Virus record (IMG/VR): IMGVR_UViG_3300022912_000002
Origin: a virus
Strand: one strand, 5' to 3'
DNA: 50,100 bases
The notes beneath the pieces are model-generated. The model was given only the letters and a program-made list of their open reading frames with translations, was not told the DNA's origin and did not search any database. Positions 23,335-50,100 of this stretch are shown here, one piece after another. Positions within the stretch are counted from its first letter, which is position 1. Every line of letters begins with the position of its first letter. Both the position numbers and the translations under genes were made by a program.

Positions 23335-23982
23335 ATGAAAAACAGAATTGAAAATTTTCAAGAAGATTGGACAGGTGGAGCATACGCCCCAGGTGGACAA
23401 TACGAACAATCCGCAGACCCTAAAGCTGATGTAATGGCTTTGTTTGGTGGTGATATGAACAAATACAATGCTTGGTACAACAACCTACGCCCCGAAGATA
23501 GACCCAAGAATTGGGATGATGCTCTCATTGGTGCGCGTGGAAGCATGGGTGCTGGTGCCTTTAAAGGCGGTCAGGTTCGTACTGGTCAGCAGACTGGTGT
23601 TCAGCCCCTTCAAAATCCTCAGGCACAGCCAATTGTTCCACAAGGGCCACAGGCTATTGGGATGCAGAAACAAGGTTTCGGTGCCAAGATGGGTGGCATG
23701 TTGGGTCAGATGATGCAACGTGCTGACTATGCAGGCGCAGGCGTTCGTCAAAAACTTGGTCAGGTATTCGGTGGTGGACAACAACAGCAACAGGCTCCAT
23801 ACATCCCAAGTGGCCCTGCACCACAACCAGCGGCATATGAAGATGGTCAAATGGCACCAAGCGCATTTCCAAATCAAGCCCCTGCGCAAGTACCGCCACA
23901 AGCCCCTCAAGATAATTCTGCTTTATTAAGACAGCTTGCCAGTTGGATGCAATCTGGCGGTGCCCCTAATATTGGAGGTTAA
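23335..23982 (+). CDS. Gln/Gly/Pro-rich low-complexity protein (candidate internal/ejection protein)
   Basis: GGAGATTAGAG lies before the ATG. Composition includes QQTGVQPLQNPQAQPIVPQGPQ and GGGQQQQQAPYIPSGPAPQPAA. Confidence 0.55.
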   Translation: MKNRIENFQEDWTGGAYAPGGQYEQSADPKADVMALFGGDMNKYNAWYNNLRPEDRPKNWDDALIGARGSMGAGAFKGGQVRTGQQTGVQPLQNPQAQPIVPQGPQAIGMQKQGFGAKMGGMLGQMMQRADYAGAGVRQKLGQVFGGGQQQQQAPYIPSGPAPQPAAYEDGQMAPSAFPNQAPAQVPPQAPQDNSALLRQLASWMQSGGAPNIGG

Positions 23983-23984
23983 TC

Positions 23985-24566
23985 ATGGGTTGGAATTTTA
24001 AAGATGCAGGCGGTGGGGCAGCACAAGGCGCGTTGGCAGGCGGTTCGATGTTCGGGCCCGCAGGCGCGATTGGTGGTGGACTACTAGGACTCGCCATGGG
24101 AGGCATGCACAGTGGGCCACCTACGGCAGAGGAAATGGGAGTTAACCCCCTCGACATAAACGCTGAAGCTCAAGCATTGATGCCTAACCAATCTGAAACG
24201 AACAATCAGCGGAATGAATTCAATGCGGGTCTTGATGGTGAAATAGAGAAATATCGCTCTCAACTCATAGCGAGTGGAATGGATCCAACTCAGGCCGCGC
24301 AATTGGCTCAGAATAAATTCATGTCTCAGAGGAATCGGTTTGGTATAAGCCAACAGCAGGGTCAGGCAAATATGCACCGTGGGCTAATGGCTCAAATGCT
24401 TCCTGCAAAACTTCAAAGAGATGAAGATATTTTGAATATCAACAATAACCAAAAGTTCGCACCAAGCTTCAATCAATCTATGGCACCCATGACAGCGGGT
24501 TTCGGGTTGCAGGGAATCTTTGACAGAACGAATGGAACTGGTTTCTTTAAGCCAGAAGGAGAGTAA
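23985..24566 (+). CDS. Gly-rich hydrophobic N-terminus protein (candidate internal/ejection protein)
   Basis: Contains the glycine-zipper-like segment GGGAAQGALAGGSMFGPAGAIGGGLLGLAMGGM. Confidence 0.55.
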   Translation: MGWNFKDAGGGAAQGALAGGSMFGPAGAIGGGLLGLAMGGMHSGPPTAEEMGVNPLDINAEAQALMPNQSETNNQRNEFNAGLDGEIEKYRSQLIASGMDPTQAAQLAQNKFMSQRNRFGISQQQGQANMHRGLMAQMLPAKLQRDEDILNINNNQKFAPSFNQSMAPMTAGFGLQGIFDRTNGTGFFKPEGE

Positions 24567-24568
24567 TC

Positions 24569-25135
24569 GTGGCTATTAATGTTCCGAATAACGACCAAAT
24601 GTTAAGCCAGTTGTCAGCGGTTGTTGGTGGTGTACTTGCTAATAAAATGGCTACCGAACAAGCGACTGCCCAACGTGGTCATGAGTTTCAATTGGCGCAA
24701 CTCAACAATCAGAATCAAATGGCTATGATTACCAAAGATTATGAGATGCGTAAACAGCTAGGTGATGAACAGCGGAAAGCTATGCTTGAAGCCCTTCCTC
24801 AACAGTTACAAGCTTGGGGATTGAATATGCAAGATATGTTACCGAAAGAGGAAAAGCCTGCAAATTGGATGGAGCATTATGGTTCCCGTATCGCAGGTGG
24901 AGCCGCAATCGGTGGTGGTATTGGCTTGGCAGGTGCGGGTGTTGGGGCTATCCCTGGCGCACTTATTGGTGGAGCCGCAGGACTTATTGAAGCTGGTGGC
25001 GCACACCTCCTGAGTGGCATTGGCAAAGAGGACAAAGAAGCCAAGAAGAAATCTGAATTGGCACTACGTCAAATGCAGACAATCGCTGCTTTGAATCAGA
25101 TGATGGGTATGAACCAAATGGCACCAGGCTTATAG
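24569..25135 (+). CDS. Gly-rich hydrophobic segment protein (candidate internal/ejection protein)
   Basis: GTG start after GGAGAGTAATC. Contains IAGGAAIGGGIGLAGAGVGAIPGALIGGAAGLIEAGGAHLL. Confidence 0.55.
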   Translation: MAINVPNNDQMLSQLSAVVGGVLANKMATEQATAQRGHEFQLAQLNNQNQMAMITKDYEMRKQLGDEQRKAMLEALPQQLQAWGLNMQDMLPKEEKPANWMEHYGSRIAGGAAIGGGIGLAGAGVGAIPGALIGGAAGLIEAGGAHLLSGIGKEDKEAKKKSELALRQMQTIAALNQMMGMNQMAPGL

Positions 25136-25145
25136 GGGTAAAATC

Positions 25146-28100
25146 TTGAGCGAAAATCCTTATGTCGAGATAGCAGATGTAATAGAGCAAATGAAACCAC
25201 AGCTTTCACCTCATCAGGTGGGGGCTGTTCGTGATTATGAGAAGGCTCTATATGGTGAAGATGAATTTTTTCTGAGGGAAACAGGGCGACTACTTGGGCA
25301 GATACCTACGGGTTTTGCTGAAGGGATGTCAACCGTTAATCTCCAATTCATTGAACCGCGTACTGAAGCTGAGAAAATTGCTCGGTCATTAGGTTCCTTG
25401 CTTGGTTTCGTGGGATATATCCCCAATCCATCTGCCCTTGCTCTAAAGGTTGCTGGAAAGACCAGTAAAAAGGGTGCGTTAAAAATACTCGGGAAACAAT
25501 GGAACAAGCCTAATTCAGCAGGTCGATGGGCTGAAATGCAGGCTATGTCTCTGGATGATTTATACAAGACTGCCATTGAAGGTGTTCCCACTAATCTCTC
25601 TAAAGTAAAATCAGTGCCGATGTATCTCACTGATATGATCACTAAATCCTCGGTTGGTAAAAAAGCAGGGAAAGCATCCCTAGACTTGCTTAACAAGTCG
25701 AAGTATATCAACTCAAACAAATTCCTGGCACCGCGTATTGGTGATTTTGGGGAAGGAATGATGCACTTGGGTCTGGCTTCTGCCATTTCCGCAGGTGGTA
25801 TCAATCCTTTCCAATGGAAGGAACGTGTTGATTCTGTACTCCCTGCTTTCGCTCATGGTGCTGCCTTTGGTGGTGCCTTTCGTGGTATTGGGCAACTTGG
25901 TAGCGTTCTAAACTGGACTACCGCTAGTGGTTCTCCAAAGACTGCCGCGAAGTTGTTGCAAGCAGTTGCAGGCTCTATGGTTCAAGGTATTCCTTCAACC
26001 ATGCGAAACGACTCTACTGCTGAACAGATTTATGAATACTTACTTGGTAGTTGGTTTGGATTTCATGAAGTTCCCTATGTTAAAAGAGTAGCAGGGAAAA
26101 AGGAACATGAGATTCAGATTGAAGGTCAGAAGTCACAGGGCGTTCATACCAGTTGGCATTATCGCAATAATCCTGAAGCCTTTAAGCGGAATTTTGGTTG
26201 GGATAAGATGCCAAAAGAAGCACAGGACATTGTTGACCTATGGCTAAAAGACCAGTATAACGCAAATAGTCCTGAGCTTTATGACATCATGACTCAGGCA
26301 AATGAAGAAATCGCAGTTAGACGCGAAGCTGGTGAAGATGTTCCCTTTATTATTCCCAATCGTGTTGGTGTCGTAAAAGCTCCTGATGCACATGGTCTTG
26401 AATTTCAGGTTCCAATTTATCATCGTGATGCTCTCAGCGAAGGTAAGCCAATTAAAAATGGTGCCATGTTTGACCGTCAAGGTGGTCGAATCATTATTGA
26501 CCCTGAGTATTTTGAGCGTAATGACCCTATCTGGAGAAAAGAGGGATTCGGTCCTGACATCGATTCAACATTTCTTCCCACAAAAGCTGAACGCCAACGG
26601 TTCATGATACTTCATGAGTTCTATCATAAATTTTACAAGTCTGAAGATTTAGCTAATGTGGTCGCTGCCTTTGAAGTAAAGCGGGAACTTGGTAAAGAAG
26701 CTGAAATTCCTGCTAATTGGATTCTTCCTCAAAGACTCTCTCCGCAGGAAAAGATTGAGTTTCAGCGATACGTTGATAAGCTTACGATGGAAACCTATAC
26801 TAAAGGTGAAGTCATTCCCGATGGAACCTACGTCAATATGCACCTCAGGACTGAAATGGGTCAGATGTATGGGCATCGTGGGTATGTGGTTGAAAAAGCA
26901 GAGGAAGCTAATGTTTTCCGCATGCTGATTGAACGACCCGCGGAAAATGGAAAGCCTGGGGAATATGTCCTCGATGATCATACTACCTTAGTCGGCCAAG
27001 ACCTTATCACTGGAATATGGCGTGATAGACACATTTCTGAGTTAGACCGCGAAGCATCCCTTCCTACTGGACATGATAATGAAGGGAATTTCAATTGGGA
27101 GGGTGGTAAGCCCACCAAAACGCCAGAAACACCGCCTAAAGCTCCTGTAAAGCCAAAAGCGACCATTGAACCGCCTAAGCCTAAAAAGGCTCCTGAGAAG
27201 CCTAAACCGCCTAAGGCAAAGAAGGTCAAAAAGCTCACCAAGAAACAAGCCAATCAGGTTGCAAATGTCGAGAAGGAAATCAAACTTCTTGAACGGATTG
27301 AGCTAGAGCAAACCGAGAAGATGAAGAATGGCGAGAAGCCAGATGATGCAGTTGGCATGGATTTCCTTCGGAGACAAGAGCAGTTAGGTGACTTCCTTGC
27401 TCGTAATGATGAAGTATTTTCCAGGATTGTAGAGAAACAGAACAATGACCTAGTTGAATATGGTAAATACCTACAAGAAAAGTATGGCAAGGAATATGAA
27501 AATTCTGACCTATCTCCCAAAGACCTAGCCCGACTCAAAGAGTTTAAAACTTTCCAAAAACGATTGGAAATGTTGATGGCAGTAGGGCAATCCCGATTGA
27601 TTAATAAGGGAAAACCTACCCCTGAGACTAAGGAATTACCTGAGGCCAAGATTAACAAAGAGGGTGAGCTTGAAATCACTATTGAAGGTGGTGAGAAGGA
27701 AGCTCAAGAGTTAATCAAAAAGGGTAAGCTCGAAGTCAAAGAGATTCAGAACGACGAGTATGTTCATCATTCAGGTGGTGCCAAAGGTGCTGATACTGGT
27801 TGGGATATGGCAGGGCGTAAATATGGCGTGAAGTCAAAACATTATCGGGAACCTGGGGCAAAGAGCGTTGACAGTCCTACCCTTAAAGGCGAGGGTGTTA
27901 AACCAGTTGAGATGTCAAAAGCTGAGTTTAAAGAAGGTACTGAGAAAGCTACTAAGGCAGCGCAACGTCTTGGTCGCCCAATGTCTGCCAAGTTCGCACA
28001 TTATCAGATTCGGAATTGGAACCAAGTCAAACATGCTGATGCGGTATTCGCAGTCGGTAGAATCCTCGATGTGGGTGAAGCAGGCGCAAAGGGTTTCCCC

Positions 28101-31100
28101 AATAAAGCCAAAAAGCAAACGGTGGATGGTGGAACTGGATATGCGGTTGAAATGGCTATTGGTGAGGGTAAGCCAGTATTCGTCTTTGACCAAGCTAGGA
28201 AGAAGTGGCATACTTGGGATGGAAAAGAATTTGTTCAAATCGATACTCCTACCCTGACACCCAATTTTGCAGGGGTTGGAACTCGGGAACTTACCAAAGG
28301 TGGCATGAAAGCCATTGAAGCAGTATTTGAGAAAACCTTTGGCAAGAAAACTGAACCTGAACCCGAAGTAGAAGTAGATCCCTGGGATGCGCTTGATGAG
28401 AATGGCAAGATTGAACCTAGTGCCGATGAACTAAATGTCCTCGATGGATGGGAGAATAAAGCACCAGTTGGTGAAGATGGTCGCCCACTCACATCTGATG
28501 TTCCTGAGCGTTCTGCAGAATACTCCGAACGAATTGAATCATCCTACACACCCCACTTGAAAGAAGTCGGTGTGAAGAATGGTATCAAAGATGACATGAA
28601 CGTGTCTAAGTGGAAATCTGAACTCCGTGAAAAACTCGGGAACTACGATGATGCGAATTTAGTCATTGAAGAATTTCAGCACCAGTATTCTCAGATTGAC
28701 ATGGGTGGCAAAGCCAACAAAGATGGTTGGACTAAAGGCCAGTTAGAGTTCATGAAGTTGGTCGAGGAAGCACACCCAGGACTATCAAAACAAGCTTTGA
28801 TGGAATACCATAATCAGGTTGAGATTGATACTATTTCCTTGAAAGGTAATGGCGCTGAGTTAGGTCGAGCATACATCACAAACGCTAAGATTCATAGGCT
28901 GTTTGACCATAAACGGTTTGTGGCACTTGAACCTAAGTTGATTGATAAGATTTATGAGGGTGCTGGACTCTACAATGAAGCGGGTCTATACACTATTCGT
29001 GAACTGCTTGCGAAAAATGAGCCTGCTGAAGCATACTTTGAGCGCATGGGTGTTGATTTTGGACACATCTATGACATGAAGCATCCAGTCGGAAAATATG
29101 CCCGACTCTTAATCAAATATGAACCACACATGATCACAGAGCTTAGAGCCATTGAAGCTTCTGAAAAAGATGGTCGTGCATCTGATAGATACCTGAACCA
29201 AAGAGATATTTTTGAAGCTCAGATTCATCGGGAAATCTTTGAAGCCGCGCAAGGCAAACAGTACACCCAATGGGCTACTGAAGGAACAATTCCTTACGCC
29301 ATGTATCAGGCTAATTACAATGAGTGGAGAGAGCAAAGGGCTGAACAGAACAAGCCTAACTCAAAGGTTGCCTATGAACGATTCCTCAGAGATAAAGGCA
29401 TCAAATCACGCGCTGATAAAATGATGAAGTATTTTGGTCAGGCCAATACCAATGCCTATTACTCTCCGAATAAGCGGAAGATGAATTATGTCGTAATCAA
29501 TGACGGAACATGGATAAAGAAATTAGCCAAGAATTCTGTGTATCAAAAGTGGTTGAAGTCTGATACTAAAAGTCGTCAAGATGGTGCTATCTACATTTCC
29601 AAAGCACAACTTGAAAGGCAGAATGAAAGGTGGAATCTTCCTGACGATACCGTGAATATGAAAACGGTTATCAATCATCGCTCTGGTGATGATGTATTTA
29701 TTGGAAAGGGTGAGACTTTTTACCATGAGGGTCTAAACGAGTTCATGGAAGCGAATGGGTTGGATTTTGTAATCTTTGACTCAGGTGCTAAAATCCGTGC
29801 CGACAAAACAGGGGTGAACTGGCCTATCATGGAAAACATGACCTTTGCTGATATGGCAAAAGGTCGTAAGGGTGCTGATGGGAAACGTAACTTTAAATAT
29901 CCTGAGATTGCAGAAAACATGCGTTCAGATATTGGTGAAGATGCCGTTGGGTTTATCAAGATGGACAAGACCAAAGGCAAGGGTCGCGTAACAGTCACAC
30001 CTCAGGTTTTGGATTCGTTCATGAATCATGATGTTGCCAATGAATATATCGAAGCCTATGTGAAGGATGAAGTCAAAGCAGTCGAGCAGATTCAGAAGTC
30101 GATTACTCGCCCAAAAGCTTTTGTCAATGCGCTTATCCATTATGGACTTGGTGCTAAAATCAAACGTGATGCGAAGGGCAAGCGTTTCGTTGAGGGGAAC
30201 TTCTCTGAATCGAATGAAGCCTATGTTCGGAAATTAATGGATGGAGCAAATCCATTCTCCGCACCTTTGATTGAGCAGACAAACAATACCTTTAGACAAG
30301 TTTTAGGCCACATCGCCAAGCCAAGAACTGCATCGGGGGAATGGGTGACACTCGTTCCTGAAAGTGGTTTTGCATGGAAAAAAGGCGGTAAGGCTGAAGA
30401 ACATGAGCTGAAAGAGCGTACCTTCAGGGACTACTCTGGTGAAAGAGTTGTAGTCCCTGGGGAGGCTCGCGCTCCTTATAGCTTTTCAAAGAAACTAGAG
30501 AAGCCTGAAAATATCACGCTGTTTGATCATGAGACAGGGAAATATGTAAAATACGCTGACCATTTTCCAGCCACACCAGTTGGTGGGAATGGCAAGATGA
30601 GATATGGTGATGCGTGGGAAGCCACCAGAAGCCAATTCTTCACTCGTAAAAATGCCGAGGGCAAAGATGAACAGGTTCGGAAATATGACCTAATCATGAA
30701 TTTCCAGACCTCTCCAAAATCTAAGCCTGAAGATATGCTTGTAATGGCGGTTGATGTTTTCCTTCCCAAGACTCGCGGAAATGCACTTGAAGCCAATACT
30801 CTCGATGCGTCTGTTGCTGCTGAACGTGATTGGGATGGTGATGCAGGGGCAGGATTCATTCACATGCCTGAAGGTATGATGCGTGAATATACGAAGGACA
30901 TACTTGGCCCCGATGGTGAGTTTCGTGTTGGTATCACCGATGTTGGAAAAGCGACGAATCCGCAGGTCGACCTTTTGGATCCTCAGTGGTATCGTGAAAT
31001 GAATGACAAGATTCGCACCGTCAATAAGAAGATTGGTGAAGTTGTAAATAGGCGGTCTGGATTCGATGCCATTGTCAAAGGCAACATGAGTATCAATTGG

Positions 31101-34100
31101 CTTGGAAATAGATTAACTGCAATCAAAGCTGACAGTGAAGCATATTCAGGCTACATGTCTGAATTTGCTGGTGAAGTCCAGGTGACGGTTGATGGTCCGA
31201 AAGCTGACCTTCTTTCCCGACCTGACCTACTCAGAGGAAATTACTCAATGCTTGCTCGCGGTAGAGCCTTTCTTGAGTTCTCGCGAAAAGACCCGATTCA
31301 CAAGATTCTCGCAAAGGTAGCCAGTTACTTTAAAGAGCAGGCTGGCCGAATGGTGAACAGTAAGAATTTCGATGGTGAAGCAAAGAACGCATCACTAAAA
31401 GCGGTTCACCAAGCTGTGCATGAACATCGAGTGCTTGAAGCAGCTGAGAACAACGAGCTATTCACATTGGGCGGGGTTCCCATCAAGACCGATCAGGTGT
31501 ATGGCGTTGTCTGGTGGAAGCAGGCAGTTCCTTCCCTGAATAAAGTGACTCAGGCTATTCATAATATCACATCTGAATTAACTCTCTCTGAAGTAACTCG
31601 CGAGGGAACATTCCCTGAGAAGAAATACAACAAAAACAAACGTGTCGCAATTCAAGCTCTCAAGAAACGTGTGAAGGATTCTGAGGATGGTCGAGCCTAT
31701 GGCGTGAATGAGCAGGATATGGCCTATTGGGAAATGTATGAAGCCAGCCTTAGTCATGGTGCTATGCAACTCCGTTGGGGGCCTGCAAGTGAAGCCAAGA
31801 AATATGACATGCCTACTGCCATTCGTGACATGCTGATTGCTGAAGATAACCCAAGTAAGAAGTTCCTGCTTGAAAAGCATGACCACAATAACCGAACTGA
31901 ATATTCTGATACCATTGTATTACCATTCTTGAATGTGAAAGGCAACCATTCAACAAGTCCGAAACAACGATTGCTGAAGAAGCTAATCGCTGCCTATCCT
32001 GACCCATTCAAACTGCATGACCCGACTCCTATCAATTTTCATGTTGGTGGAACTGGTGGTGGTATGCACACGACTCGAAGGGCTGACCAAATCAGAACTT
32101 CCATGTTGGCATCCAGAAATAATGAAGCTCTCTATCGTATGATTGCCGATAAACACCCTGAGATATTTGAGGGAATCGACTACAAATCCAGTAAAGGTTG
32201 GACTATCCCTAAACGCATCCTTGAGTATTGGGGTGAGAAGAATAAGGCCAAAGCGAAACAAATTGCTGAGATGTGGGCTTTGCGTTCAATGCGTGATAGC
32301 TTGCCCTTCCAACGGCCTAGAGATTTTGCATCAGTCGAAGAATTAAAGATGAATGAGAATAAGGTTCAGACCAAATTTCGCTTTTTCATCGAGACTAATG
32401 GGTTAGAGCCTATACTCTTTCCCAAAGGTATTCCTGAGAATCTAGGGGAGTACCTGGATAAGTACCGCATCGAAAGTCAAGATGGTGGGAAGCAGTTTGA
32501 TTATACCTCTCTCGATGCGCGTATCCAGTCCTTGTGGGATAAAGGCACCAGAGACATCCGAACATTTTTCATGCCTGACCCAATGGTTTCCAAAACTGGC
32601 AGTTTGCATGGCTCGTTTACTGAAGCCGTTAGTATCAACCGAAGTTTGTGGGACCAATTCTCGAAGGACAAAGCTCACCAAAGTTGGATTAGACACTACG
32701 ATGATGTGGTATCTGACCAAGATGGGATGGGGCATAGATATACGGAAGCATCGAGGAAAAGGGCTGACCTACTCCTAAGAGGGGTTGAACCTAATGAGCT
32801 TTTCTTCCCTTATGGTGGCCGTGAAGAAGCACTTGGGGTAATTAAGGATATGAGTAACGGTACAATCCCAATGACTCCTGGGCAACGTGCTGACTTCCAG
32901 AGACTATTTGCTGAATATCCTGAAATGGCTTCTCAGTTTCGCAGGGTTCTACTTGGCCTTATTAATAAACCTCACCTCGATAACCACAAAGAGATTGACT
33001 TTGTTATCAAAAAATTGAGCGCATTGGGTTCTGGCGATCCTAGACTTGGTGTGATTCAAAGACAACTCATGCCAAATAGAGTTCAACGTGACTTCCTGAA
33101 GTTTGATGTCATGTGGCCTGAGTCTGAAGTGGTTGGAACTGGTATGCACGCCTTGAAGCCAGTTAGTGGATTCGGTAAGGTTTTTCAACATCAGCTGGAA
33201 TCACATGCTGAGATTCAGAAGGAAGAACAAAAAGGGCAAATCTTACTAAACTCTATTTTCTATCTGGAAAAGCTACCCGAGTGGGTTTCCAAAGAGTATG
33301 GTCTTGAGAATGGATCTATGTTCACCAAAGAGGAATCTACCTACGTCGAACAATGGAAAGAAATGTTTAAAGCTGATGTTGGTGCTGTAAAGGACTTGTT
33401 TGACATCGCGGCTCACATCTACCCAGTTGAGTATGGCGGTAAAGAGCATTTCAAAGGAATGTCCTCTGAGCATAAAGCTGAAATCATGGATAGATACAGA
33501 AATGCTAAAGCTCAGTTGGAATCTCTTGACCATGATGCAGGTCGAGCAAAACGACATTATGTGAAATATATCATGAGACAGCAGAACAAGCTTGCTGACT
33601 TCATCCATAACACTTATTGGGAACATTCTTCAGGCAAGAAATACTCTATCCATTGGAATAATCAGGAAGTGAAAAGGTATCACTTACCCAAGCAGATTAA
33701 AGAATTGAACAAAGAAATACTCCGACTGCAAAAGGAATCTTCAAAGCTGACTGGTTCCGATGCCAAAGAGATTCAGAATATTATTGAAGCGCGGACCGAG
33801 ACGATGCACATGTTGGAAAACCTAGCCAAAAAGCTAGACAACTTGAATCGTATGAAGCTTGTTGCAAAGGGTGATAAGTTCATTACTCCTGACCGAATCG
33901 CTGGCTACCTCCCTCACATTTGGGATTCACCTGAGTTGATGGTAAAAGCCTATGAGGAATCATATGTCAGAACCATTAATGCAACTAAAGACCCCAAGCT
34001 GAAGAAAGCACTTACAATTGACATGCAGAAGAAGCTTGAAGATTTAGGCCGAACGATGGTTGAACCACCTGGAAAAGAGTTCTTTGATGCGAAGGCTGAT

Positions 34101-35663
34101 CAATTCGATTGGTTCTCCAAAACAAGAAATCCTGCCGAGCGTGAGCGTAACATGCAGTTAGGCGGGTGGTCTACTGAGCTTCCTATGGTCTGGATGAAGT
34201 ATTGGAAAGATACTGTGAAACAGGCTGTTGGGCTTAAATATAGTGTTGAAAGTCGCAGAATGATTGACGATTTCAGTATGCGAATGGAGAAGAAATTCGG
34301 TAAGGAATCTGAAGGTCAAGTAAAGCGAATTGCTGAATTTATGAATGTATATTTGCGTGACTCAATGGGCTACATACCTGAGTTCAATAAGCGACCCAAG
34401 CTACTGAAATATATGCTTGCCAAAGCATCAGGTAAAAAGCCTGACGATAATCCCGATGCTTATGAAGAATTCTTTTCCGATTCTACTGTAATTGATTTTT
34501 GGAATAAACGCTCTAAGTACAAGTTGCCTGCATGGAAAATGCAACAACTAGCTAACCTTGAAGCCAAGTACGAATATCTGACCTTGCTGACACATCCTAA
34601 ATATCCACTTGGAAATATTCTTGGCGGTACAACCAACATGCTAGTCTATGGTGGAATCAAACGATTCAAGCAAGCCAATCAACTGTTGGGTCAAAAAGAC
34701 GGTGAATATAAGGCGATGATGAAATCTCAGGGAGTGTTGCCCGAGTTAATGGCCTATGAGTTCGATGTTGCTGCTGGCCCTTACAAAGTGGAAATAGGCG
34801 GTGCCTATGAAGCCGTGAAAGAAGTGGCATTATCCAACAAAACTAGAGCGCAGAAAAGGGAAGCTTTACTTGAAATAAATCGCAAGTATAATATTGGCAG
34901 GAAAGCTATGGATATTGCAGGGAAATTCGGTACTCCTGCTGAAACATGGCTAAGAGAACGTGCATTTACTGTTGGGTATATCATGGCAGAAGAAATGGGC
35001 TTGTCAGGTGATGCACAGATTAAGTTTTCCAGGGATGTTGTAACTGGTACACAGTATCTTTACCACAATGGGGTAAGACCTGAATTTGCTAGAACTGGAT
35101 TCGGTAAAATTGTTACTCGATTTATGATGTACTTCTTTTCCACCATGAGCTTTCAAAAGCAGATTCAACTTGATGCACAGAAATTGAACCTAACTCCTGA
35201 GTCTGAAGAACACAAACGCATGCAAAGATGGACTTCGGTTGCATCGGTCATGATGGCCTTAGCATCGATCTACCCATATTCAATATTTGATTCAGCTTTG
35301 CCACCTCACCTGGATGCCATGAAGGATGCGAGTGAAATGATGTTCGGTGATGATGATGATAGGAAGCGTGCTTTCTTCGGTACCTATGGTTTGAACGTAA
35401 TTACCGCACCAATGCCCTCAAGATTAATTCTAAGGCCATTAGTCACAATCATGAATCAAGACTATCAGCGGTACTTAAACAGCGAGATATACAGTTGGTT
35501 CCCCTTTGGCAGATTTGCTAAGAGTTCCATGCGAATGTTACGCAATCCTATCTATGGATTAGAGACTTTCGCAGGTGTTCCACAGATTTCCGCAAGTCGG
35601 GATGTGAAGCATATTCAGAAGGGAAAAGAAAAAGGGACTGACAGTTATCAATCCCCAGGTTAG
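25146..35663 (+). CDS. Giant (3505 aa) virion/ejection-type multidomain protein with a candidate two-barrel RNA polymerase core
   Basis: Uninterrupted 10.5-kb ORF with a TTG start. HEFYH at aa 490-494. Pro/Lys linker (nt about 27108-27250). SLOG-like HHSGGAKGADTGW...DGGTGYAVEMAIGEGKPVFVFD (nt about 27756-28240). QDGAIYIS (nt 29577-29600). SPKSKPEDMLVMAVDV ... DWDGD ... FIHMP (nt 30711-30870). Hydrophobic segments at both ends. Confidence 0.85.
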   Translation: MSENPYVEIADVIEQMKPQLSPHQVGAVRDYEKALYGEDEFFLRETGRLLGQIPTGFAEGMSTVNLQFIEPRTEAEKIARSLGSLLGFVGYIPNPSALALKVAGKTSKKGALKILGKQWNKPNSAGRWAEMQAMSLDDLYKTAIEGVPTNLSKVKSVPMYLTDMITKSSVGKKAGKASLDLLNKSKYINSNKFLAPRIGDFGEGMMHLGLASAISAGGINPFQWKERVDSVLPAFAHGAAFGGAFRGIGQLGSVLNWTTASGSPKTAAKLLQAVAGSMVQGIPSTMRNDSTAEQIYEYLLGSWFGFHEVPYVKRVAGKKEHEIQIEGQKSQGVHTSWHYRNNPEAFKRNFGWDKMPKEAQDIVDLWLKDQYNANSPELYDIMTQANEEIAVRREAGEDVPFIIPNRVGVVKAPDAHGLEFQVPIYHRDALSEGKPIKNGAMFDRQGGRIIIDPEYFERNDPIWRKEGFGPDIDSTFLPTKAERQRFMILHEFYHKFYKSEDLANVVAAFEVKRELGKEAEIPANWILPQRLSPQEKIEFQRYVDKLTMETYTKGEVIPDGTYVNMHLRTEMGQMYGHRGYVVEKAEEANVFRMLIERPAENGKPGEYVLDDHTTLVGQDLITGIWRDRHISELDREASLPTGHDNEGNFNWEGGKPTKTPETPPKAPVKPKATIEPPKPKKAPEKPKPPKAKKVKKLTKKQANQVANVEKEIKLLERIELEQTEKMKNGEKPDDAVGMDFLRRQEQLGDFLARNDEVFSRIVEKQNNDLVEYGKYLQEKYGKEYENSDLSPKDLARLKEFKTFQKRLEMLMAVGQSRLINKGKPTPETKELPEAKINKEGELEITIEGGEKEAQELIKKGKLEVKEIQNDEYVHHSGGAKGADTGWDMAGRKYGVKSKHYREPGAKSVDSPTLKGEGVKPVEMSKAEFKEGTEKATKAAQRLGRPMSAKFAHYQIRNWNQVKHADAVFAVGRILDVGEAGAKGFPNKAKKQTVDGGTGYAVEMAIGEGKPVFVFDQARKKWHTWDGKEFVQIDTPTLTPNFAGVGTRELTKGGMKAIEAVFEKTFGKKTEPEPEVEVDPWDALDENGKIEPSADELNVLDGWENKAPVGEDGRPLTSDVPERSAEYSERIESSYTPHLKEVGVKNGIKDDMNVSKWKSELREKLGNYDDANLVIEEFQHQYSQIDMGGKANKDGWTKGQLEFMKLVEEAHPGLSKQALMEYHNQVEIDTISLKGNGAELGRAYITNAKIHRLFDHKRFVALEPKLIDKIYEGAGLYNEAGLYTIRELLAKNEPAEAYFERMGVDFGHIYDMKHPVGKYARLLIKYEPHMITELRAIEASEKDGRASDRYLNQRDIFEAQIHREIFEAAQGKQYTQWATEGTIPYAMYQANYNEWREQRAEQNKPNSKVAYERFLRDKGIKSRADKMMKYFGQANTNAYYSPNKRKMNYVVINDGTWIKKLAKNSVYQKWLKSDTKSRQDGAIYISKAQLERQNERWNLPDDTVNMKTVINHRSGDDVFIGKGETFYHEGLNEFMEANGLDFVIFDSGAKIRADKTGVNWPIMENMTFADMAKGRKGADGKRNFKYPEIAENMRSDIGEDAVGFIKMDKTKGKGRVTVTPQVLDSFMNHDVANEYIEAYVKDEVKAVEQIQKSITRPKAFVNALIHYGLGAKIKRDAKGKRFVEGNFSESNEAYVRKLMDGANPFSAPLIEQTNNTFRQVLGHIAKPRTASGEWVTLVPESGFAWKKGGKAEEHELKERTFRDYSGERVVVPGEARAPYSFSKKLEKPENITLFDHETGKYVKYADHFPATPVGGNGKMRYGDAWEATRSQFFTRKNAEGKDEQVRKYDLIMNFQTSPKSKPEDMLVMAVDVFLPKTRGNALEANTLDASVAAERDWDGDAGAGFIHMPEGMMREYTKDILGPDGEFRVGITDVGKATNPQVDLLDPQWYREMNDKIRTVNKKIGEVVNRRSGFDAIVKGNMSINWLGNRLTAIKADSEAYSGYMSEFAGEVQVTVDGPKADLLSRPDLLRGNYSMLARGRAFLEFSRKDPIHKILAKVASYFKEQAGRMVNSKNFDGEAKNASLKAVHQAVHEHRVLEAAENNELFTLGGVPIKTDQVYGVVWWKQAVPSLNKVTQAIHNITSELTLSEVTREGTFPEKKYNKNKRVAIQALKKRVKDSEDGRAYGVNEQDMAYWEMYEASLSHGAMQLRWGPASEAKKYDMPTAIRDMLIAEDNPSKKFLLEKHDHNNRTEYSDTIVLPFLNVKGNHSTSPKQRLLKKLIAAYPDPFKLHDPTPINFHVGGTGGGMHTTRRADQIRTSMLASRNNEALYRMIADKHPEIFEGIDYKSSKGWTIPKRILEYWGEKNKAKAKQIAEMWALRSMRDSLPFQRPRDFASVEELKMNENKVQTKFRFFIETNGLEPILFPKGIPENLGEYLDKYRIESQDGGKQFDYTSLDARIQSLWDKGTRDIRTFFMPDPMVSKTGSLHGSFTEAVSINRSLWDQFSKDKAHQSWIRHYDDVVSDQDGMGHRYTEASRKRADLLLRGVEPNELFFPYGGREEALGVIKDMSNGTIPMTPGQRADFQRLFAEYPEMASQFRRVLLGLINKPHLDNHKEIDFVIKKLSALGSGDPRLGVIQRQLMPNRVQRDFLKFDVMWPESEVVGTGMHALKPVSGFGKVFQHQLESHAEIQKEEQKGQILLNSIFYLEKLPEWVSKEYGLENGSMFTKEESTYVEQWKEMFKADVGAVKDLFDIAAHIYPVEYGGKEHFKGMSSEHKAEIMDRYRNAKAQLESLDHDAGRAKRHYVKYIMRQQNKLADFIHNTYWEHSSGKKYSIHWNNQEVKRYHLPKQIKELNKEILRLQKESSKLTGSDAKEIQNIIEARTETMHMLENLAKKLDNLNRMKLVAKGDKFITPDRIAGYLPHIWDSPELMVKAYEESYVRTINATKDPKLKKALTIDMQKKLEDLGRTMVEPPGKEFFDAKADQFDWFSKTRNPAERERNMQLGGWSTELPMVWMKYWKDTVKQAVGLKYSVESRRMIDDFSMRMEKKFGKESEGQVKRIAEFMNVYLRDSMGYIPEFNKRPKLLKYMLAKASGKKPDDNPDAYEEFFSDSTVIDFWNKRSKYKLPAWKMQQLANLEAKYEYLTLLTHPKYPLGNILGGTTNMLVYGGIKRFKQANQLLGQKDGEYKAMMKSQGVLPELMAYEFDVAAGPYKVEIGGAYEAVKEVALSNKTRAQKREALLEINRKYNIGRKAMDIAGKFGTPAETWLRERAFTVGYIMAEEMGLSGDAQIKFSRDVVTGTQYLYHNGVRPEFARTGFGKIVTRFMMYFFSTMSFQKQIQLDAQKLNLTPESEEHKRMQRWTSVASVMMALASIYPYSIFDSALPPHLDAMKDASEMMFGDDDDRKRAFFGTYGLNVITAPMPSRLILRPLVTIMNQDYQRYLNSEIYSWFPFGRFAKSSMRMLRNPIYGLETFAGVPQISASRDVKHIQKGKEKGTDSYQSPG

Positions 35664-35681
35664 TCAGGCTTTCAGAAAAAA

Positions 35682-35707
35682 GAAGCCCCTCTGAATCGAG
35701 GGGTTTC
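35682..35707. terminator. Bidirectional intrinsic terminator between the convergent late and early arms
   Basis: GAAGCCCCTC-tgaatc-GAGGGGTTTC forms a 10-bp stem with one G-U pair. It is flanked by AAAAAA upstream and TTATGTGTTTT downstream, so there is a U-tract on both strands. Confidence 0.75.
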
Positions 35708-35750
35708 TTATGTGTTTTAGGGGTAGTATGTCCACAATCTCTGGACTTAC

Positions 35751-37100: not shown

Positions 37101-37443
37101 CAGCCTTCAGTTTCTCAGAGTTGATGAGGGCGATCTTGTAAGCTGACGTTTTAGTTAGCTCACCGACTTCCTCACCTTCCATGAAACATTGTGCCAGTAA
37201 CCAACTTGCTTCCCCTTGAGTAAAGCCAGTTGGGTCGGAGTCGACTGCTATTCGCATAGCTTCATCGATTCCTTGTGCGTGTACTTCCTTGTGAACAGGA
37301 ATAGTGACATTAAATCCGATTCTAAACTTCAGCAACTTCGCTTTCGATTGGGTCGGCTTTTTCGCTTTCTGTTTCTTCGGTGCTTTCGGTGTAATCGGTT
37401 TCGATTTCTTCTGCAAAGGTTGTTTCTCCTTCCTCTGAATCAT
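37075..37443 (-). CDS. Hypothetical small protein. The true start is probably the internal ATG at 37257.
   Basis: The upstream 120 nt of the ORF overlap the end of the ParB-like gene. The ATG at 37257 would give a 60-aa product, MRIAVDSDPTGF... Confidence 0.4.
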   Translation of the reverse strand: MIQRKEKQPLQKKSKPITPKAPKKQKAKKPTQSKAKLLKFRIGFNVTIPVHKEVHAQGIDEAMRIAVDSDPTGFTQGEASWLLAQCFMEGEEVGELTKTSAYKIALINSEKLKAGEEVDSPE

Positions 37444-49973: not shown

Positions 49974-50100
49974 TCGCGCACCAAGCCTTTAAGTAATGCC
50001 CACCACAAATTAATGTGATGGGCATAAAGGATTAGCACAATGGGTGCTACCAGTTAAACTCCTGCCTTTGTGCAGGTATGGAATCCGTGCCGACCATCTG
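49974..50100. repeat. Terminal overlap copy 2 (identical to 1-127)
   Basis: Read directly. Identical to the first 127 nt, and it truncates a second copy of the 74-424 gene at the window end. Confidence 0.95.

What the first reader, a model, noticed from the sequence alone, without database searches (positions are those of the whole stretch)
25146..35663. A 10.5-kb single ORF (21% of the genome) with a mosaic ejection-protein architecture
Reading along the ORF shows these parts in order:
- A Gly/Ala-rich hydrophobic N-terminal region (GLASAISAGGINPF, AFAHGAAFGGAFRGIG).
- An HExxH motif.
- A Pro/Lys linker (KPTKTPETPPKAPVKPKATIEPPKPKKAPEKPKPPKAKK, nt about 27108-27250) followed by a Lys/Glu coiled coil.
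- A SLOG-like Rossmann module.
- A roughly 600-aa helical region.
- The RNAP-like core.
- About 1500 further residues ending in hydrophobic segments (FGKIVTRFMMYFFSTMSF, WTSVASVMMALASIYPYSIF).

It follows three Gly/Gln-rich small proteins and a 947-aa structural protein. That order parallels T7 gp12, then gp13-15, then gp16.

Fusing several enzymatic modules to a putative membrane-inserting ejection protein would be unusual. It suggests a toolbox delivered ahead of the DNA.
Basis: partly seen in the sequence, partly recalled or inferred. Interest (0 to 1): 0.7.

Follow-up and report, generated by a model that had tools for sequence, protein, structure and literature searches.

The report
Giant injected phage RNA polymerase protein
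This 3,505-residue phage gene most likely encodes a giant protein carried in the virus particle and injected with the DNA. Its centre is an RNA polymerase of the crAss-phage type, and it belongs to a large family known only from uncultured phages.

Summary
The identical protein occurs on at least 24 independent contigs, so the ORF is not a merging artefact.

The "RNAP-like core" is real and can be specified. Residues ~1412-2005 form a single-chain two-barrel (DPBB) RNA polymerase.
- It has an invariant Asp triad, DWDGD 1895-1899.
- The family profile matches the crAss-like phage virion RNAP gp66 (hhalign 96 %, E 8e-9).
- An AF2 model (pLDDT 75) finds PDB 6VR4 (gp66) first, then QDE-1 and RDR2.

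The protein belongs to a family of at least 479 clusters at 50 % identity, with no match among the cultured phage records searched. Family members share three fixed parts:
- a conserved N-terminal module;
- the RNAP core;
- a C-terminal module whose core is homologous to the "PLxRFG" tail of giant DarB-like proteins of F116/LASTA-type podophages.

The SLOG and HExxH modules are optional inserts in the linker between the N-module and the core. The family is almost free of cysteine (0.005 %).

However, it is not unprecedented (N4 vRNAP, crAss gp65-67), and the T7 gp16 analogy is only functional. Verdict: a new variant of a known kind.

The parts
25146..35663 (+). Giant ORF, 3,505 aa with a TTG start and no cysteine. 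It is the last gene of the + strand structural operon.
   Evidence: The identical protein occurs on at least 24 contigs.
25134..25138 (+). Shine-Dalgarno-like AGGGG, 7 nt upstream of the TTG start.
   Evidence: Read directly from the sequence.
25197..26135 (+). Family-defining N-terminal module, aa ~18-330. Invariant residues include G56, G60, T63, G238, G242, Y296, Y298 and L299. Its function is unknown and no homologue was detected outside the family.
   Evidence: BLAST coverage in 52 of 56 homologues. hhalign confidence 8-9. Invariant columns in A5. Present in 112 of 113 full-length representatives. No relation found to the N4-like NTD, gp65, gp67 or PLxRFG giants.
25746..25892 (+). Gly/Ala-rich, moderately hydrophobic segments inside the N-module, aa 201-249. 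They are a candidate membrane-interacting element.
   Evidence: KD19 about 0.96-0.98. Their position resembles the membrane helices at residues 224-278 of the N4 gp50 NTD (PMC13434306). This is an analogy only.
26136..27065 (+). Optional HExxH (zincin-like) module, aa ~331-640. The HEFYH motif is at aa 490-494 (nt 26613-26627).
   Evidence: The motif is conserved in 10 of the first 52 members, with a downstream Glu. The module occurs in 7 of 113 representatives. The Pfam Peptidase_M78 hit has E = 0.13, below threshold. The match to the gp65 zincin covers the motif only.
27108..27224 (+). Pro/Lys low-complexity linker, aa 655-693.
   Evidence: It is analogous to the ~100-aa low-complexity NTD-RNAP linker of N4 gp50.
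27225..27725 (+). Lys/Glu-rich region, aa 694-860. A coiled coil was not tested.
   Evidence: K+E fraction 0.24-0.25. No family hit.
27738..28370 (+). Optional SLOG-superfamily Rossmann module, aa ~865-1075. Its motifs are SGGAKGAD, DAVFAVG and GGTGYAV.
   Evidence: phrog_768, E = 1e-5. Alignment A4. Weak member hits all fall in the SLOG clan: DprA, cpYpsA, YAcAr and LDcluster4. The same module occurs in the N4-like Pylas vRNAP and in a crAss-like giant. It is present in 18 of 113 representatives.
28371..29378 (+). Unassigned region between the SLOG module and the RNAP core, aa 1076-1411. It is alignable only within group 1.
29379..31160 (+). Two-barrel (DPBB) single-chain RNA polymerase core, aa ~1412-2005, arranged barrel A, connector, barrel B.
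   Evidence: hhalign against the gp66 family: 95.2-95.7 %, E 2.8e-8 / 8.4e-9, with clean controls. AF2 model with pLDDT 75.3 and pTM 0.74. Foldseek finds 6VR4 at E 1.3e-8, followed by QDE-1, RDR2 and multisubunit RNAPs. The best BFVD hit has E 1.6e-20.
29571..29801 (+). First conserved island, putative barrel A, aa 1476-1552. It holds the near-invariant residues D1479-G1480, K1506, K1521 and K1549.
   Evidence: The segment is beta-rich with pLDDT 65-91 in both models.
30828..30842 (+). Catalytic metal-binding motif DWDGD, aa 1895-1899. It is preceded by the T/R1855-x-P1857 strand.
   Evidence: It is the only DxDxD in the protein. The Asp triad is invariant in 52 of 52 members and in 39 of 39 aligned sequences. 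It aligns with the gp66 motif 1361-DFDID-1365.
31161..34142 (+). Post-core region, aa 2006-2999. It has a conserved island at aa ~2600-2700. Its function is unknown, and it may hold further RNAP elements or regulatory domains.
   Evidence: No detectable extension of the gp66 homology. Only weak hits of a coiled-coil kind.
34143..35615 (+). Family-defining C-terminal module, aa ~3000-3490.
   Evidence: Present in 112 of 113 representatives.
34890..35363 (+). PLxRFG-like core of the C-module, aa ~3249-3406. It includes both hydrophobic segments (aa 3319-3336 and 3362-3381).
   Evidence: NCBIfam NF032893, E = 1.1e-9 at 37 bits against a cut-off of 100. hhalign against 12 PLxRFG domains: 97.2 %, E 4.7e-11, 146 columns, with clean controls.
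35680..35709 (.). Bidirectional intrinsic-terminator-like hairpin between the convergent operons.
23335..25135 (+). Three small Gly/Gln-rich, cysteine-free proteins (215, 193 and 188 aa). Two of them carry glycine-zipper hydrophobic runs. They are candidate co-ejected membrane or periplasm proteins.
   Evidence: Syntenic small genes precede the giant gene in L004 and L005.
20242..23085 (+). 947-aa protein of unknown function upstream of the small proteins.
   Evidence: No PHROG or PDB hit.

Best explanation
The ORF encodes a giant protein that is packaged in the capsid and expelled into the host with the DNA. It works as a virion RNA polymerase combined with an ejection protein.

**Shown**
- Residues ~1412-2005 are a single-chain two-barrel RNA polymerase core homologous to the virion RNAP gp66 of crAss-like phages.
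- The catalytic Asp triad is invariant across the family.
- The core sits between a family-specific N-terminal module and a C-terminal module.
- The C-module core is homologous to the PLxRFG tail found on giant DarB-like proteins of F116/LASTA/POI1126-type podophages.
- The SLOG and HExxH modules are optional inserts in the variable linker between the N-module and the core.
- The whole family avoids cysteine.

**Inferred**
1. Late in infection the protein is made as the last product of the structural operon. It is loaded into the procapsid, with the C-module and/or the N-module serving as the packaging and ejection chassis.
2. At infection it follows the three small glycine-zipper proteins through the short tail, partly unfolded. 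The absence of cysteine prevents disulfide trapping in the periplasm.
3. The Gly/Ala-rich N-module and the hydrophobic helices of the C-module associate with the inner membrane.
4. The refolded RNAP core then transcribes the first phage genes, independently of the host RNAP, as shown for gp66 and N4 gp50.
5. The SLOG module (nucleotide or ssDNA binding) and the zincin-like module (protease or peptidoglycan peptidase) act as co-delivered accessories, for example in counter-defence, envelope penetration or self-processing.
For: **RNAP core**
- Profile-profile match to 55 gp66-core homologues: 95.2-95.7 %, E 2.8e-8 / 8.4e-9. The match is collinear over barrel A, connector and barrel B, with DWDGD placed on DFDID. 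Controls give at most 0.4 %.
- AF2 model with pLDDT 75. Foldseek top hit is 6VR4 at E 1.3e-8, then QDE-1 and RDR2, and all of the top 50 are two-barrel RNAPs. BFVD returns giants of uncultured viruses and crAss-like giants.
- The Asp triad and three Lys residues are invariant.

**Packaging and ejection (indirect)**
- gp66 is virion-packaged and translocated (10.1101/2020.03.07.982082).
- The C-module matches the PLxRFG domain. H66 gp60 carries a virion mass-spectrometry note.
- The gene is the last of the structural operon and is followed by a terminator. This synteny is conserved.
- The query has 0 Cys in 3,505 aa, P about 1e-8 against its own proteome.
- The family has 17 Cys in 345,917 residues.
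- Known or suspected ejected giants show the same bias: Pylas vRNAP 0, POI1126 0, LASTA 0, H66 gp60 1, and gp65/66/67 1-2 each.

**Modularity**
- 111 of 113 representatives have N-module, core and C-module. SLOG occurs in 18 and HExxH in 7, always in the linker.
- The same SLOG module sits inside an N4-like vRNAP and a crAss-like giant.

**Layout**
- The layout parallels N4 gp50: a lipid-binding NTD, a low-complexity linker, the RNAP, then a CTD (PMC13434306).
Against: - There is no direct evidence of virion association for any member of this family, and no cultured representative was found.
- Foldseek TM-scores to solved RNAPs are modest (0.36-0.39, rmsd about 10 A).
- The bridge helix and trigger loop were not identified, and homology to gp66 does not extend beyond the two barrels.
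- The match to the PLxRFG model covers only ~150 of 680 positions and falls below NCBIfam's cut-off.
- The N-module has no detectable relative.
- Its hydrophobic segments are too weak to be called transmembrane helices.
- The HExxH module's peptidase assignment is sub-threshold.
- Template specificity (DNA versus RNA) cannot be read from the sequence. QDE-1 relatives can use both.
Confidence: 0.72

Rival explanations
1. The protein is a polyprotein precursor. The giant product would be cleaved, perhaps by its own HExxH module or by a head protease, into separate virion proteins: an N-terminal membrane protein, accessory enzymes, the RNAP and a C-terminal protein. These would correspond to the separate gp67/gp66/gp65 of crAss-like phages. 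This is a variant of the main explanation, not a contradiction of it.
For: [quoted passage not shown] The query has an HExxH module and long low-complexity linkers.
Against: Only 7 of 113 representatives carry the HExxH module, so self-cleavage cannot be general. N4 gp50 functions uncleaved as beads on a string. No relation between the N- or C-modules and gp67 or gp65 was detected.
Confidence: 0.2
2. The protein is a T7 gp16-like ejection or channel protein whose main role is structural and envelope-penetrating. On this view the two-barrel domain is a degenerate or non-transcribing remnant, or makes primers or RNA for another purpose.
For: Its position follows small membrane-active proteins. 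The PLxRFG relatives carry wall hydrolases, with SleB/MepK-like hits in POI1126 gp30. One family member has a YkuD domain.
Against: The Asp triad is invariant in 52 of 52 members, and DxDxD occurs in 110 of 113 representatives. The Lys residues of barrel A are also conserved, which argues for a catalytically active polymerase. No lytic transglycosylase or other T7 gp16 domain is present in the query.
Confidence: 0.08
3. The protein is a non-virion RNAP or replication enzyme that happens to be encoded at the end of the late operon and is not packaged.
For: No proteomic data exist for this family. P23-45 and jumbo phages also encode non-virion two-barrel RNAPs.
Against: The gene lies in the late or structural operon. 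Cysteine avoidance is extreme and is shared with packaged giants. The C-module is shared with giants, one of which carries a virion mass-spectrometry note. The nearest solved relative is a virion enzyme.
Confidence: 0.06
4. The long ORF is an assembly or sequencing artefact that merges several genes.
For: None was found.
Against: The identical 3,490/3,505-aa product occurs on at least 24 contigs from different samples and assemblers. At least 111 full-length homologues have the same collinear architecture.
Confidence: 0.01

Closest known systems
gp66, the virion-packaged DNA-dependent RNAP of the crAss-like Cellulophaga phage phi14:2 (PDB 6VR4), with its partners gp65 (zincin-like) and gp67
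   Same: - It has a single-chain two-barrel core with a connector and an aligned catalytic DxDxD.
- It is the last large gene of the structural operon, and a metallophosphoesterase lies in the same operon.
- A zincin-type HExxH module is associated with the RNAP.
- It is cysteine-poor.
   Different: - The motif here is DWDGD (family GGADxDGD), not DFDID.
- The genome is 50 kb rather than ~100 kb, and TerL, portal and MCP show no BLAST-level similarity to phi14:2.
- Here one 3,505-aa chain carries family-specific N- and C-modules that are undetectable in gp65 or gp67.
- Homology is limited to ~490 residues.
gp50, the vRNAP of coliphage N4 and other Schitoviridae (including Klebsiella phage Pylas gp65)
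   Same: - It is a single ~3,500-aa chain arranged as a membrane-associated NTD, a low-complexity linker, the polymerase and a large CTD.
- It is the last gene of the late operon, preceded by small ejection proteins.
- The Pylas vRNAP carries the same SLOG module at aa ~983-1160.
- The Pylas vRNAP has 0 Cys.
   Different: - The N4 core is a T7-like right-hand single-subunit RNAP, whereas the core here is two-barrel.
- No NTD or CTD homology was detected.
PLxRFG-domain giant proteins (NCBIfam NF032893), annotated as DarB-like antirestriction proteins, of F116/H66, LASTA, PEp14, PBC5 and POI1126-type podophages
   Same: - They are giant (1,900-4,900 aa) and are the last gene of the structural module, taking 19-24 % of a 44-66-kb genome.
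- They are nearly cysteine-free.
- The homologous C-terminal core includes the two hydrophobic helices.
   Different: - Their cargo is methyltransferase, SNF2 helicase, PLD and wall hydrolases, with no DxDGD RNAP.
- Only ~150 of 680 positions of the PLxRFG model match, below the curated cut-off.
- The N-module is not shared.
gp96 of Thermus phage P23-45, a tape-measure protein fused to a virion RNAP
   Same: It fuses a two-barrel virion RNAP to a protein that is ejected and forms the DNA conduit.
   Different: It belongs to a siphovirus tape-measure protein, the RNAP is at the N-terminus, and it falls in a different RNAP clade. It did not appear among the Foldseek top 50.
T7 gp14/gp15/gp16 ejectosome
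   Same: The gene order places small membrane-active proteins before a large internal protein, and the presumed role is in trans-envelope DNA delivery.
   Different: No sequence, profile or fold evidence of homology was found. There is no lytic transglycosylase, and T7 gp16 has no polymerase.

Membership tests
Two-barrel (DPBB) RNA polymerase superfamily, single-chain gp66/QDE-1/RDR clade | Metal-binding Asp triad (DxDxD / DbDGD) in one barrel | tested here: met
   DWDGD at aa 1895-1899 is the only DxDxD in the protein. The triad is invariant in 52 of 52 members, in A3 and A5, and occurs in 110 of 113 representatives.
Two-barrel (DPBB) RNA polymerase superfamily, single-chain gp66/QDE-1/RDR clade | Second barrel upstream carrying conserved basic residues, joined to the first by a connector in the same chain | tested here: met
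   K1506, K1521 and K1549 are invariant or near-invariant within the beta-rich island at aa 1476-1552. The hhalign path is collinear and runs from the region upstream of the gp66 Connector through to barrel B.
Two-barrel (DPBB) RNA polymerase superfamily, single-chain gp66/QDE-1/RDR clade | Fold similarity to solved two-barrel RNAPs | tested here: met
   An AF2 model (pLDDT 75.3) gives 6VR4 at E 1.3e-8, 2J7N at 3.8e-7 and 7ROZ at 1.3e-4 in Foldseek. All of the top 50 hits are two-barrel RNAPs, although TM-scores are only 0.32-0.39.
Two-barrel (DPBB) RNA polymerase superfamily, single-chain gp66/QDE-1/RDR clade | Bridge helix and trigger loop | tested here: inconclusive
   They were not located. 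Homology to gp66 is not detectable beyond aa ~1905, and the model of aa 1351-2550 was unreliable (pLDDT 43).
Two-barrel (DPBB) RNA polymerase superfamily, single-chain gp66/QDE-1/RDR clade | Template-dependent RNA synthesis | not testable with these tools
   This requires a biochemical assay.
Crassvirales virion RNAP (gp66 orthologue) | Crassvirales genome context: related TerL, portal and MCP, and a transcription block of separate giant proteins | tested here: not met
   BLASTP found no similarity between the window's structural proteins and those of phi14:2. TerL is at most 26 % identical to any cultured phage. The product here is a single chain.
Crassvirales virion RNAP (gp66 orthologue) | Virion packaging and translocation into the host | not testable with these tools
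   There is only indirect support: operon position, cysteine avoidance and the PLxRFG-like tail.
Schitoviridae (N4-like) vRNAP gp50 | T7-like right-hand single-subunit RNAP core | tested here: not met
   No Pfam or PDB sequence hit. The core fold is two-barrel.
Schitoviridae (N4-like) vRNAP gp50 | Homologous NTD and CTD | tested here: not met
   hhalign of the family N- and C-profiles against the Pylas vRNAP gave Prob 0.1 %. The template was a single sequence, so sensitivity was limited. Only the SLOG insert is shared.
PLxRFG domain-containing proteins (NCBIfam NF032893 'tail-700') | C-terminal ~680-aa domain scoring above the curated cut-off of 100 bits | tested here: not met
   The query scores 37.4 bits (E 1.1e-9) over profile positions 299-445 only. 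P0040 has no hit. POI1126 gp30 scores 923 bits.
PLxRFG domain-containing proteins (NCBIfam NF032893 'tail-700') | Homology of the domain core (distant relationship) | tested here: met
   hhalign of the family C-module against 12 PLxRFG domains gave 97.2 %, E 4.7e-11 over 146 columns. Controls gave at most 0.4 %.
SLOG superfamily (SMF/DprA-LOG) | Rossmann-like module with a Gly-rich loop after beta-1 and a GGxGT-type motif, plus profile hits to SLOG families | tested here: met
   The motifs SGGAxGxD and GGTGW/YAV are invariant in A4. phrog_768 gives E 1e-5. Member hits to DprA, cpYpsA, YAcAr and LDcluster4 have E 0.006-0.05. The query segment alone has no Pfam hit, and the PDB profile search was negative. 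Membership therefore holds at superfamily level only.
Zincin metallopeptidases (e.g. M78/ImmA-IrrE, crAss gp65 zincin-like) | HExxH with a third ligand, plus profile or fold similarity to a peptidase family | tested here: inconclusive
   HEFYH is conserved with a downstream Glu across 10 members. The Peptidase_M78 hit has E 0.13, below the cut-off. The gp65 match covers 28 columns at E 0.13.
T7 gp16-type internal core protein | N-terminal lytic transglycosylase and homology to gp16 | tested here: not met
   No such Pfam, PHROG or NCBIfam hit in any segment.

The most novel reading that the evidence does not exclude
The conserved N- and C-terminal modules, the latter PLxRFG-like, may form a general "injection chassis" for giant, cysteine-free cargo proteins of short-tailed phages. 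The central payload would then be evolutionarily swappable:
- a crAss-type two-barrel RNAP in this family;
- DarB-like methyltransferase/helicase and wall hydrolases in F116/LASTA/POI1126-type phages;
- shared plug-ins such as the SLOG module, which also occurs in N4-like vRNAPs and crAss-like giants.

If so, this family would be the missing link showing that virion RNAPs of different folds were recruited independently onto a common delivery scaffold. It would bear directly on the question posed in the 2026 N4 paper of how crAss-type and N4-type ejected polymerases relate.
Probability: 0.35. Interest if true: 0.8.

Novelty: new variant of a known kind. Interest (0 to 1): 0.62.

Why it matters
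**Precedents.** Virion-packaged RNA polymerases let a phage start transcription without the host enzyme. According to the 2026 N4 paper, only two have been characterised structurally: N4 gp50, which is T7-like, and crAss phi14:2 gp66, which is two-barrel. P23-45 gp96 is a third case.

**What this locus adds.**
- It defines a large family of at least 479 clusters at 50 % identity, from ~40-50-kb phage genomes, with no match among the cultured phage records searched.
- The family places a crAss-type catalytic core inside an N4-like single-chain layout.
- Its C-terminal module is shared with the enigmatic 400-500-kDa "PLxRFG/DarB-like" giants of cultured podophages.

**Testable ideas that follow.**
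- The PLxRFG tail may be a packaging or ejection signal.
- Near-total cysteine avoidance may serve as a sequence signature for recognising ejected phage proteins.
- Modules such as SLOG may be exchangeable, pre-delivered accessories, possibly for counter-defence.

**Practical use.** The family extends the known distribution of gp66/QDE-1-type polymerases beyond Crassvirales. It also offers many compact sequences for structural work on how a ~390-kDa enzyme passes through a podovirus tail.

Tried and rejected
**Negative searches with the query**
- The full-length protein found nothing in Pfam or in PDB sequences.
- A megablast of 24 kb against phages found no match.
- tblastn of aa 1-1000 and 1001-3505 against cultured phages hit only the SLOG module.
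- A typical group-2 member (P0023) had no match at all.

**Attempts that failed or gave little**
- The first AF2 attempt used a gappy full-length alignment of aa 1351-2550. It failed (pLDDT 43) and was not used.
- An HMM of the core against PDB sequences returned only spurious helical-repeat designs.
- A second homologous-protein search with alignment A1 was swamped by word candidates and returned 2 proteins, so it was wasted.
- Iterative HMM searching could not bridge group 1 and group 2 cores. Profile-profile comparison was needed.
- The pattern-based locus search for gp65 and for the Pylas NTD retrieved only self or close relatives, so no deep profiles could be built for those.
The scan with A5 gave only 4 loci with unreliable host hints.

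**Relationships tested and not found**
- The N-module and C-module against the Pylas NTD and CTD, gp65, gp66 and gp67 gave no signal, and the N-module gave none against the N-termini of PLxRFG giants.
- The HExxH module matches the gp65 zincin over the motif only.
- The SLOG profile against the PDB was negative.
- Homology to gp66 could not be extended beyond the barrels. An earlier run of the same test timed out.
- The 947-aa protein has no PHROG or PDB hit.

**Interpretations rejected**
- N4-type (T7-like) core.
- Membership of Crassvirales.
- Homology to T7 gp16.
- Assembly artefact.

Full report
**1. The observation**

Window 25146..35663 (+) is a single ORF of 3,505 codons. It starts at TTG, 7 nt after an AGGGG element and 10 nt after the stop codon of the preceding gene.

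- Gly/Ala-rich stretches at aa 209-249
- HEFYH at aa 490-494
- the Pro/Lys linker at aa 655-693 (nt 27108-27224)
- two hydrophobic segments at aa 3319-3336 and 3362-3381

The first and last 127 nt of the window are identical. The window is therefore a circularly assembled genome of 49,973 bp, and the ORF is 21 % of it.

The ORF is not an artefact. The identical protein is recorded on at least 24 contigs from ENA, Logan and JGI assemblies, including 50,114-bp MEGAHIT circles. The same collinear architecture is seen in 111 of 113 full-length representatives of its family.

**2. Genomic setting**

The + strand carries these genes in order:
- TerL (3223-4827)
- portal (4962-7142)
- a major-head-protein-like gene (8154-9437)
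- a 1,764-aa tail fibre
- a metallophosphoesterase
- a 947-aa protein with no recognisable relative
- three small Gly/Gln-rich proteins
- the giant gene

A bidirectional terminator-like hairpin (35680-35709) follows. After it, a convergent minus-strand block encodes ParB-like, Gam-like, primase-helicase and Sak4-like proteins.

TerL is at most 26 % identical to any cultured phage. No stretch of the genome matches GenBank phages at the DNA level.

**3. A family with a fixed frame and a variable interior**

A first search returned 57 proteins, most of 2,700-4,500 aa and a few of 2,085-6,121 aa, from ~40-50-kb contigs, with no informative source names.

BLAST aligns only the first ~320 and the last ~500 residues in nearly all of them. 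The middle aligns only in four close relatives. Profile-profile comparison of the two subgroups nevertheless gives one collinear alignment. It has conserved islands at these positions:
- aa ~1400-1650
- aa ~1850-2000
- aa ~2600-2700
- aa 3000-3490

Every one of the 52 full members has exactly one D-x-D-x-D, usually GGADxDGD.

An exhaustive HMM search of 1.84 billion cluster representatives with the core profile found 479 clusters at E <= 1e-3 and 308 at E <= 1e-30. Among 113 full-length representatives (median 3,070 aa):
- 111 contain the N-module, the core and the C-module.
- The distance from the N-module to the core varies from 278 to 1,073 aa.
- The SLOG module occurs in 18 and the HExxH module in 7, always in that linker.
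- Other members carry cpYpsA, YkuD, DUF4326 or 2OG-Fe(II) oxygenase domains, according to the Pfam hits precomputed for them.

**4. The core is a two-barrel RNA polymerase of the crAss/QDE-1 type**

A trimmed alignment (A3, aa 1455-2005) shows invariant K1521, K1549, P1857, D1895, D1897 and D1899. Near-invariant positions are D1479, G1480, K1506, Q1620, P1726, R1855 and F1872.

Sequence profiles alone do not reach any PDB entry. I therefore built a profile of 55 homologues of the gp66 core of Cellulophaga phage phi14:2 from IMG/VR. hhalign between the two profiles gives:
- 95.2-95.7 % probability, E 2.8e-8 / 8.4e-9, over 307-385 columns
- query aa ~1442-1905 aligned with gp66 aa ~912-1371
- "RVPxDSxSG...GFT...LGGADxDGD" placed on "YRIPNQGQSS...VGIL...TGSDFDIDK"

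Cross-pairings and reversed templates score at most 0.4 %.

AlphaFold2 on A3 gave a usable model (pLDDT 75.3, pTM 0.74). Foldseek results were as follows:
- In the PDB, the best match is 6VR4, the virion-packaged RNAP of phi14:2 (E 1.3e-8, 529 columns).
- It is followed by QDE-1 (3.8e-7), RDR2 (1.3e-4) and the largest subunits of cellular, ASFV and AR9 RNAPs. All of the top 50 are two-barrel RNAPs.
- In BFVD, the best hits are segments of giant proteins of uncultured viruses (E 1.6e-20, TMq 0.58), followed by crAss-like phage giants.

TM-scores to solved structures are modest (0.32-0.39). Homology could not be extended beyond the two barrels. The bridge helix and trigger loop therefore remain unlocated.

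The phage is not a conventional member of Crassvirales, because its TerL, portal and MCP show no BLAST-level similarity to those of phi14:2.

**5. The C-terminal module links the family to PLxRFG giants**

The last 515 residues hit NCBIfam NF032893 ("tail-700", PLxRFG domain). The hit has E 1.1e-9, but only 37 bits against a cut-off of 100, and covers profile positions 299-445.

Genuine PLxRFG proteins occur in 73 cultured podophage records: F116/H66, LASTA, PEp14, PBC5, POI1126 and others.
- They are 1,900-4,900 aa and are the last gene of the structural module.
- They are annotated as DarB-like antirestriction protein, methylase, Snf2 helicase, transglycosylase or "internal virion polymerase".
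- POI1126 gp30 scores 923 bits and carries SleB/MepK-like, methyltransferase, SNF2 and PLD-like regions.
The same phrase for gp64 ends "of the virion".
- The Lastavirus literature calls the protein a 495-kDa product of unknown role that takes 19 % of the genome (PMC9505181).

hhalign of the family C-module against 12 PLxRFG domains gives 97.2 %, E 4.7e-11 over 146 columns. This corresponds to query aa ~3249-3406 and includes both hydrophobic segments. Controls are clean.

None of the PLxRFG giants examined has a DxDGD motif. The tail is therefore shared while the cargo differs.

**6. The N-terminal module**

The N-module (aa ~18-330) is the best-conserved part of the family. It has no detectable relative in the Pylas vRNAP, gp65, gp67 or PLxRFG giants. 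The only match is a 23-residue Gly-rich patch with POI1126.

Its Gly/Ala-rich segments are only moderately hydrophobic. Their position (aa 201-249) resembles the putative membrane helices of the N4 gp50 NTD (residues 224-278), which inserts into nanodiscs (PMC13434306). This is an analogy, not homology.

**7. The accessory modules**

*SLOG (aa ~865-1075).*
- phrog_768 "DprA-like" gives E 1e-5.
- The motifs SGGAxGxD, DAVFAIG and GGTGW/YAV are invariant.
- Weak member hits fall only in SLOG-clan families.
- The query alone has no Pfam hit, and the PDB profile search is negative.
- The same module (31-54 % identity) sits at aa ~983-1160 of the N4-like Pylas vRNAP.
- It also lies near the C-terminus of a 4,328-aa crAss-like protein.
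- It also matches unannotated 460-735-kb uncultured phage records.

*HExxH (aa ~331-640).*
- The motif and a downstream Glu are conserved.
- The only profile hit is Peptidase_M78 at E 0.13.
- The match to the gp65 zincin is limited to the motif.
- The assignment is therefore plausible but not established.

*Pro/Lys linker and Lys/Glu region.* These were checked by composition only.

**8. Cysteine avoidance**

| Protein or set | Length (aa) | Cys |
|---|---|---|
| Giant protein (query) | 3,505 | 0 |
| Rest of the query proteome | 10,587 | 55 (0.52 %) |
| 113 full-length family representatives | 345,917 | 17 (0.005 %) |
| Pylas vRNAP | 3,819 | 0 |
| POI1126 gp30 | 4,841 | 0 |
| LASTA giant | 4,433 | 0 |
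| H66 gp60 | 3,787 | 1 |
| gp65 / gp66 / gp67 | 1,421 / 2,180 / 1,797 | 1 / 2 / 1 |

- Against the query's own proteome, the probability of zero Cys in 3,505 residues is about 1e-8.
- The three upstream small proteins also lack cysteine.
- 105 of the 113 family representatives have no cysteine at all.

My inference is that proteins which cross the tail channel and the oxidising periplasm in an extended state are selected against disulfide-forming residues. I found no statement of this in the papers read ("cysteine" has 0 occurrences), so it rests on inference.

**9. Most likely mechanism**

The protein is made late, packaged, and ejected after the small glycine-zipper proteins.
- The N-module, and possibly the PLxRFG-like helices, hold it at the inner membrane.
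- The two-barrel core transcribes the first phage genes, as shown experimentally for gp66 (10.1101/2020.03.07.982082) and for N4 gp50 (PMC13434306).
- The SLOG and zincin-like inserts are delivered as extras.

Shown: the fold and homology of the core, the C-module relationship, the modular architecture, the synteny and the cysteine bias. Inferred: packaging, ejection, membrane association, early-gene transcription and the roles of the inserts.

**10. Comparison with what is known, and novelty**

The concept is established:
- N4 vRNAP.
- The crAss gp65-67 set, for which Drobysheva et al. already note fusion into "a single huge polyprotein" in some phages and a zincin-like domain.
- The P23-45 TMP-RNAP fusion.

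What appears new is the combination:
- a crAss-type core in an N4-like single-chain layout;
- in ~50-kb genomes that are not crAss-like;
- with a PLxRFG-like tail shared with DarB-like giants;
- in a family of hundreds of clusters with no cultured member.

I found no paper describing this family. The searched library is incomplete, however. The "23 RNAP families" of Drobysheva and Chaban could include it, and I could not check that. I therefore rate it a new variant of a known kind, with interest 0.62.

Noticed in passing
window 1-127 and 49974-50100: The two ends of the window are identical over 127 nt. The window is a circularly assembled, complete 49,973-bp genome. The same genome appears as 50,114-bp MEGAHIT (k141) contigs in other samples.
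   Followed up: yes
window 23335-25135 (three genes): These are three cysteine-free, Gly/Gln-rich small proteins. Two have long glycine-zipper hydrophobic runs, for example AGGAAIGGGIGLAGAGVGAIPGALIGGAAGL. The 188-aa protein has a precomputed PF21724 (DUF6861) hit. Similar small genes precede the giant gene in homologue contigs L004 and L005. They are candidate co-ejected channel proteins.
   Followed up: partly
window 35680-35709: A GC-rich hairpin with T-runs on both strands looks like a bidirectional terminator. It lies between the convergent structural and replication operons.
   Followed up: partly
window 19469-20260: A metallophosphoesterase gene is embedded in the structural operon and overlaps the start of the 947-aa gene. 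phi14:2 has a metallophosphatase (g075) at an equivalent place, although BLAST similarity is only E 0.005.
   Followed up: partly
Whole family. Cys counts: P0002-P0054 (except P0044) and P0066-P0208, Pylas vRNAP (L006:6052-17511), POI1126 gp30 (L090:768-15293), LASTA giant (L097:2766-16067), H66 gp60 (L098:2686-14049): Giant phage proteins that are known or suspected to be ejected avoid cysteine almost completely. The values are 0.005 % in the family, 0 in the Pylas vRNAP, POI1126 gp30 and the LASTA giant, and 1 in H66 gp60. This could be a usable sequence signature of ejected proteins.
   Followed up: partly
L006:9001-9530, L007:9001-9530, LR745206 / LR7565xx records: One and the same SLOG module (31-54 % identity) is inserted in giant proteins of unrelated phages. 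It occurs in an N4-like vRNAP and a crAss-like 4,328-aa protein, and it matches unannotated 460-735-kb uncultured phage records. The giants P0044, P0055 and P0056 (4,928-6,121 aa) share only this module with the query, though each also has an HExxH motif.
   Followed up: partly
P0016 core segment; P0004, P0005, P0017, P0019, P0033, P0048: Family members carry other accessory enzyme domains. These are a GNAT-like insert next to the RNAP barrels (seen by eye in P0016), cpYpsA, YkuD L,D-transpeptidase, DUF4326 and 2OG-Fe(II) oxygenase.
   Followed up: no
L111 (Prochlorococcus sp. AG-436-M02 contig QCPL01000010.1, 46,061 bp): A family member lies on a 46-kb contig in a Prochlorococcus single-cell genome. 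Others are binned with Flavobacteriales, Arcobacter and Saccharibacteria MAGs. These are possible but unreliable host hints.
   Followed up: no
window 13394-18688: The 1,764-aa tail-fibre-like protein has four separate stretches matching phrog_24456 and further matches to other fibre families, which suggests internal repeats.
   Followed up: no
window 37322-39208 (-), 47315-48292 (-): The minus-strand block holds a large (628-aa) ParB-N-domain protein and a protein with an anti-restriction-like PHROG hit. No DNA polymerase was seen among the ORFs scanned.
   Followed up: no
L004:1-7568: In the contig of homologue P0014, a second giant gene (3,441 aa) lies upstream of the small proteins and the RNAP giant. 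Two genes therefore take about 40 % of a 47-kb genome.
   Followed up: no
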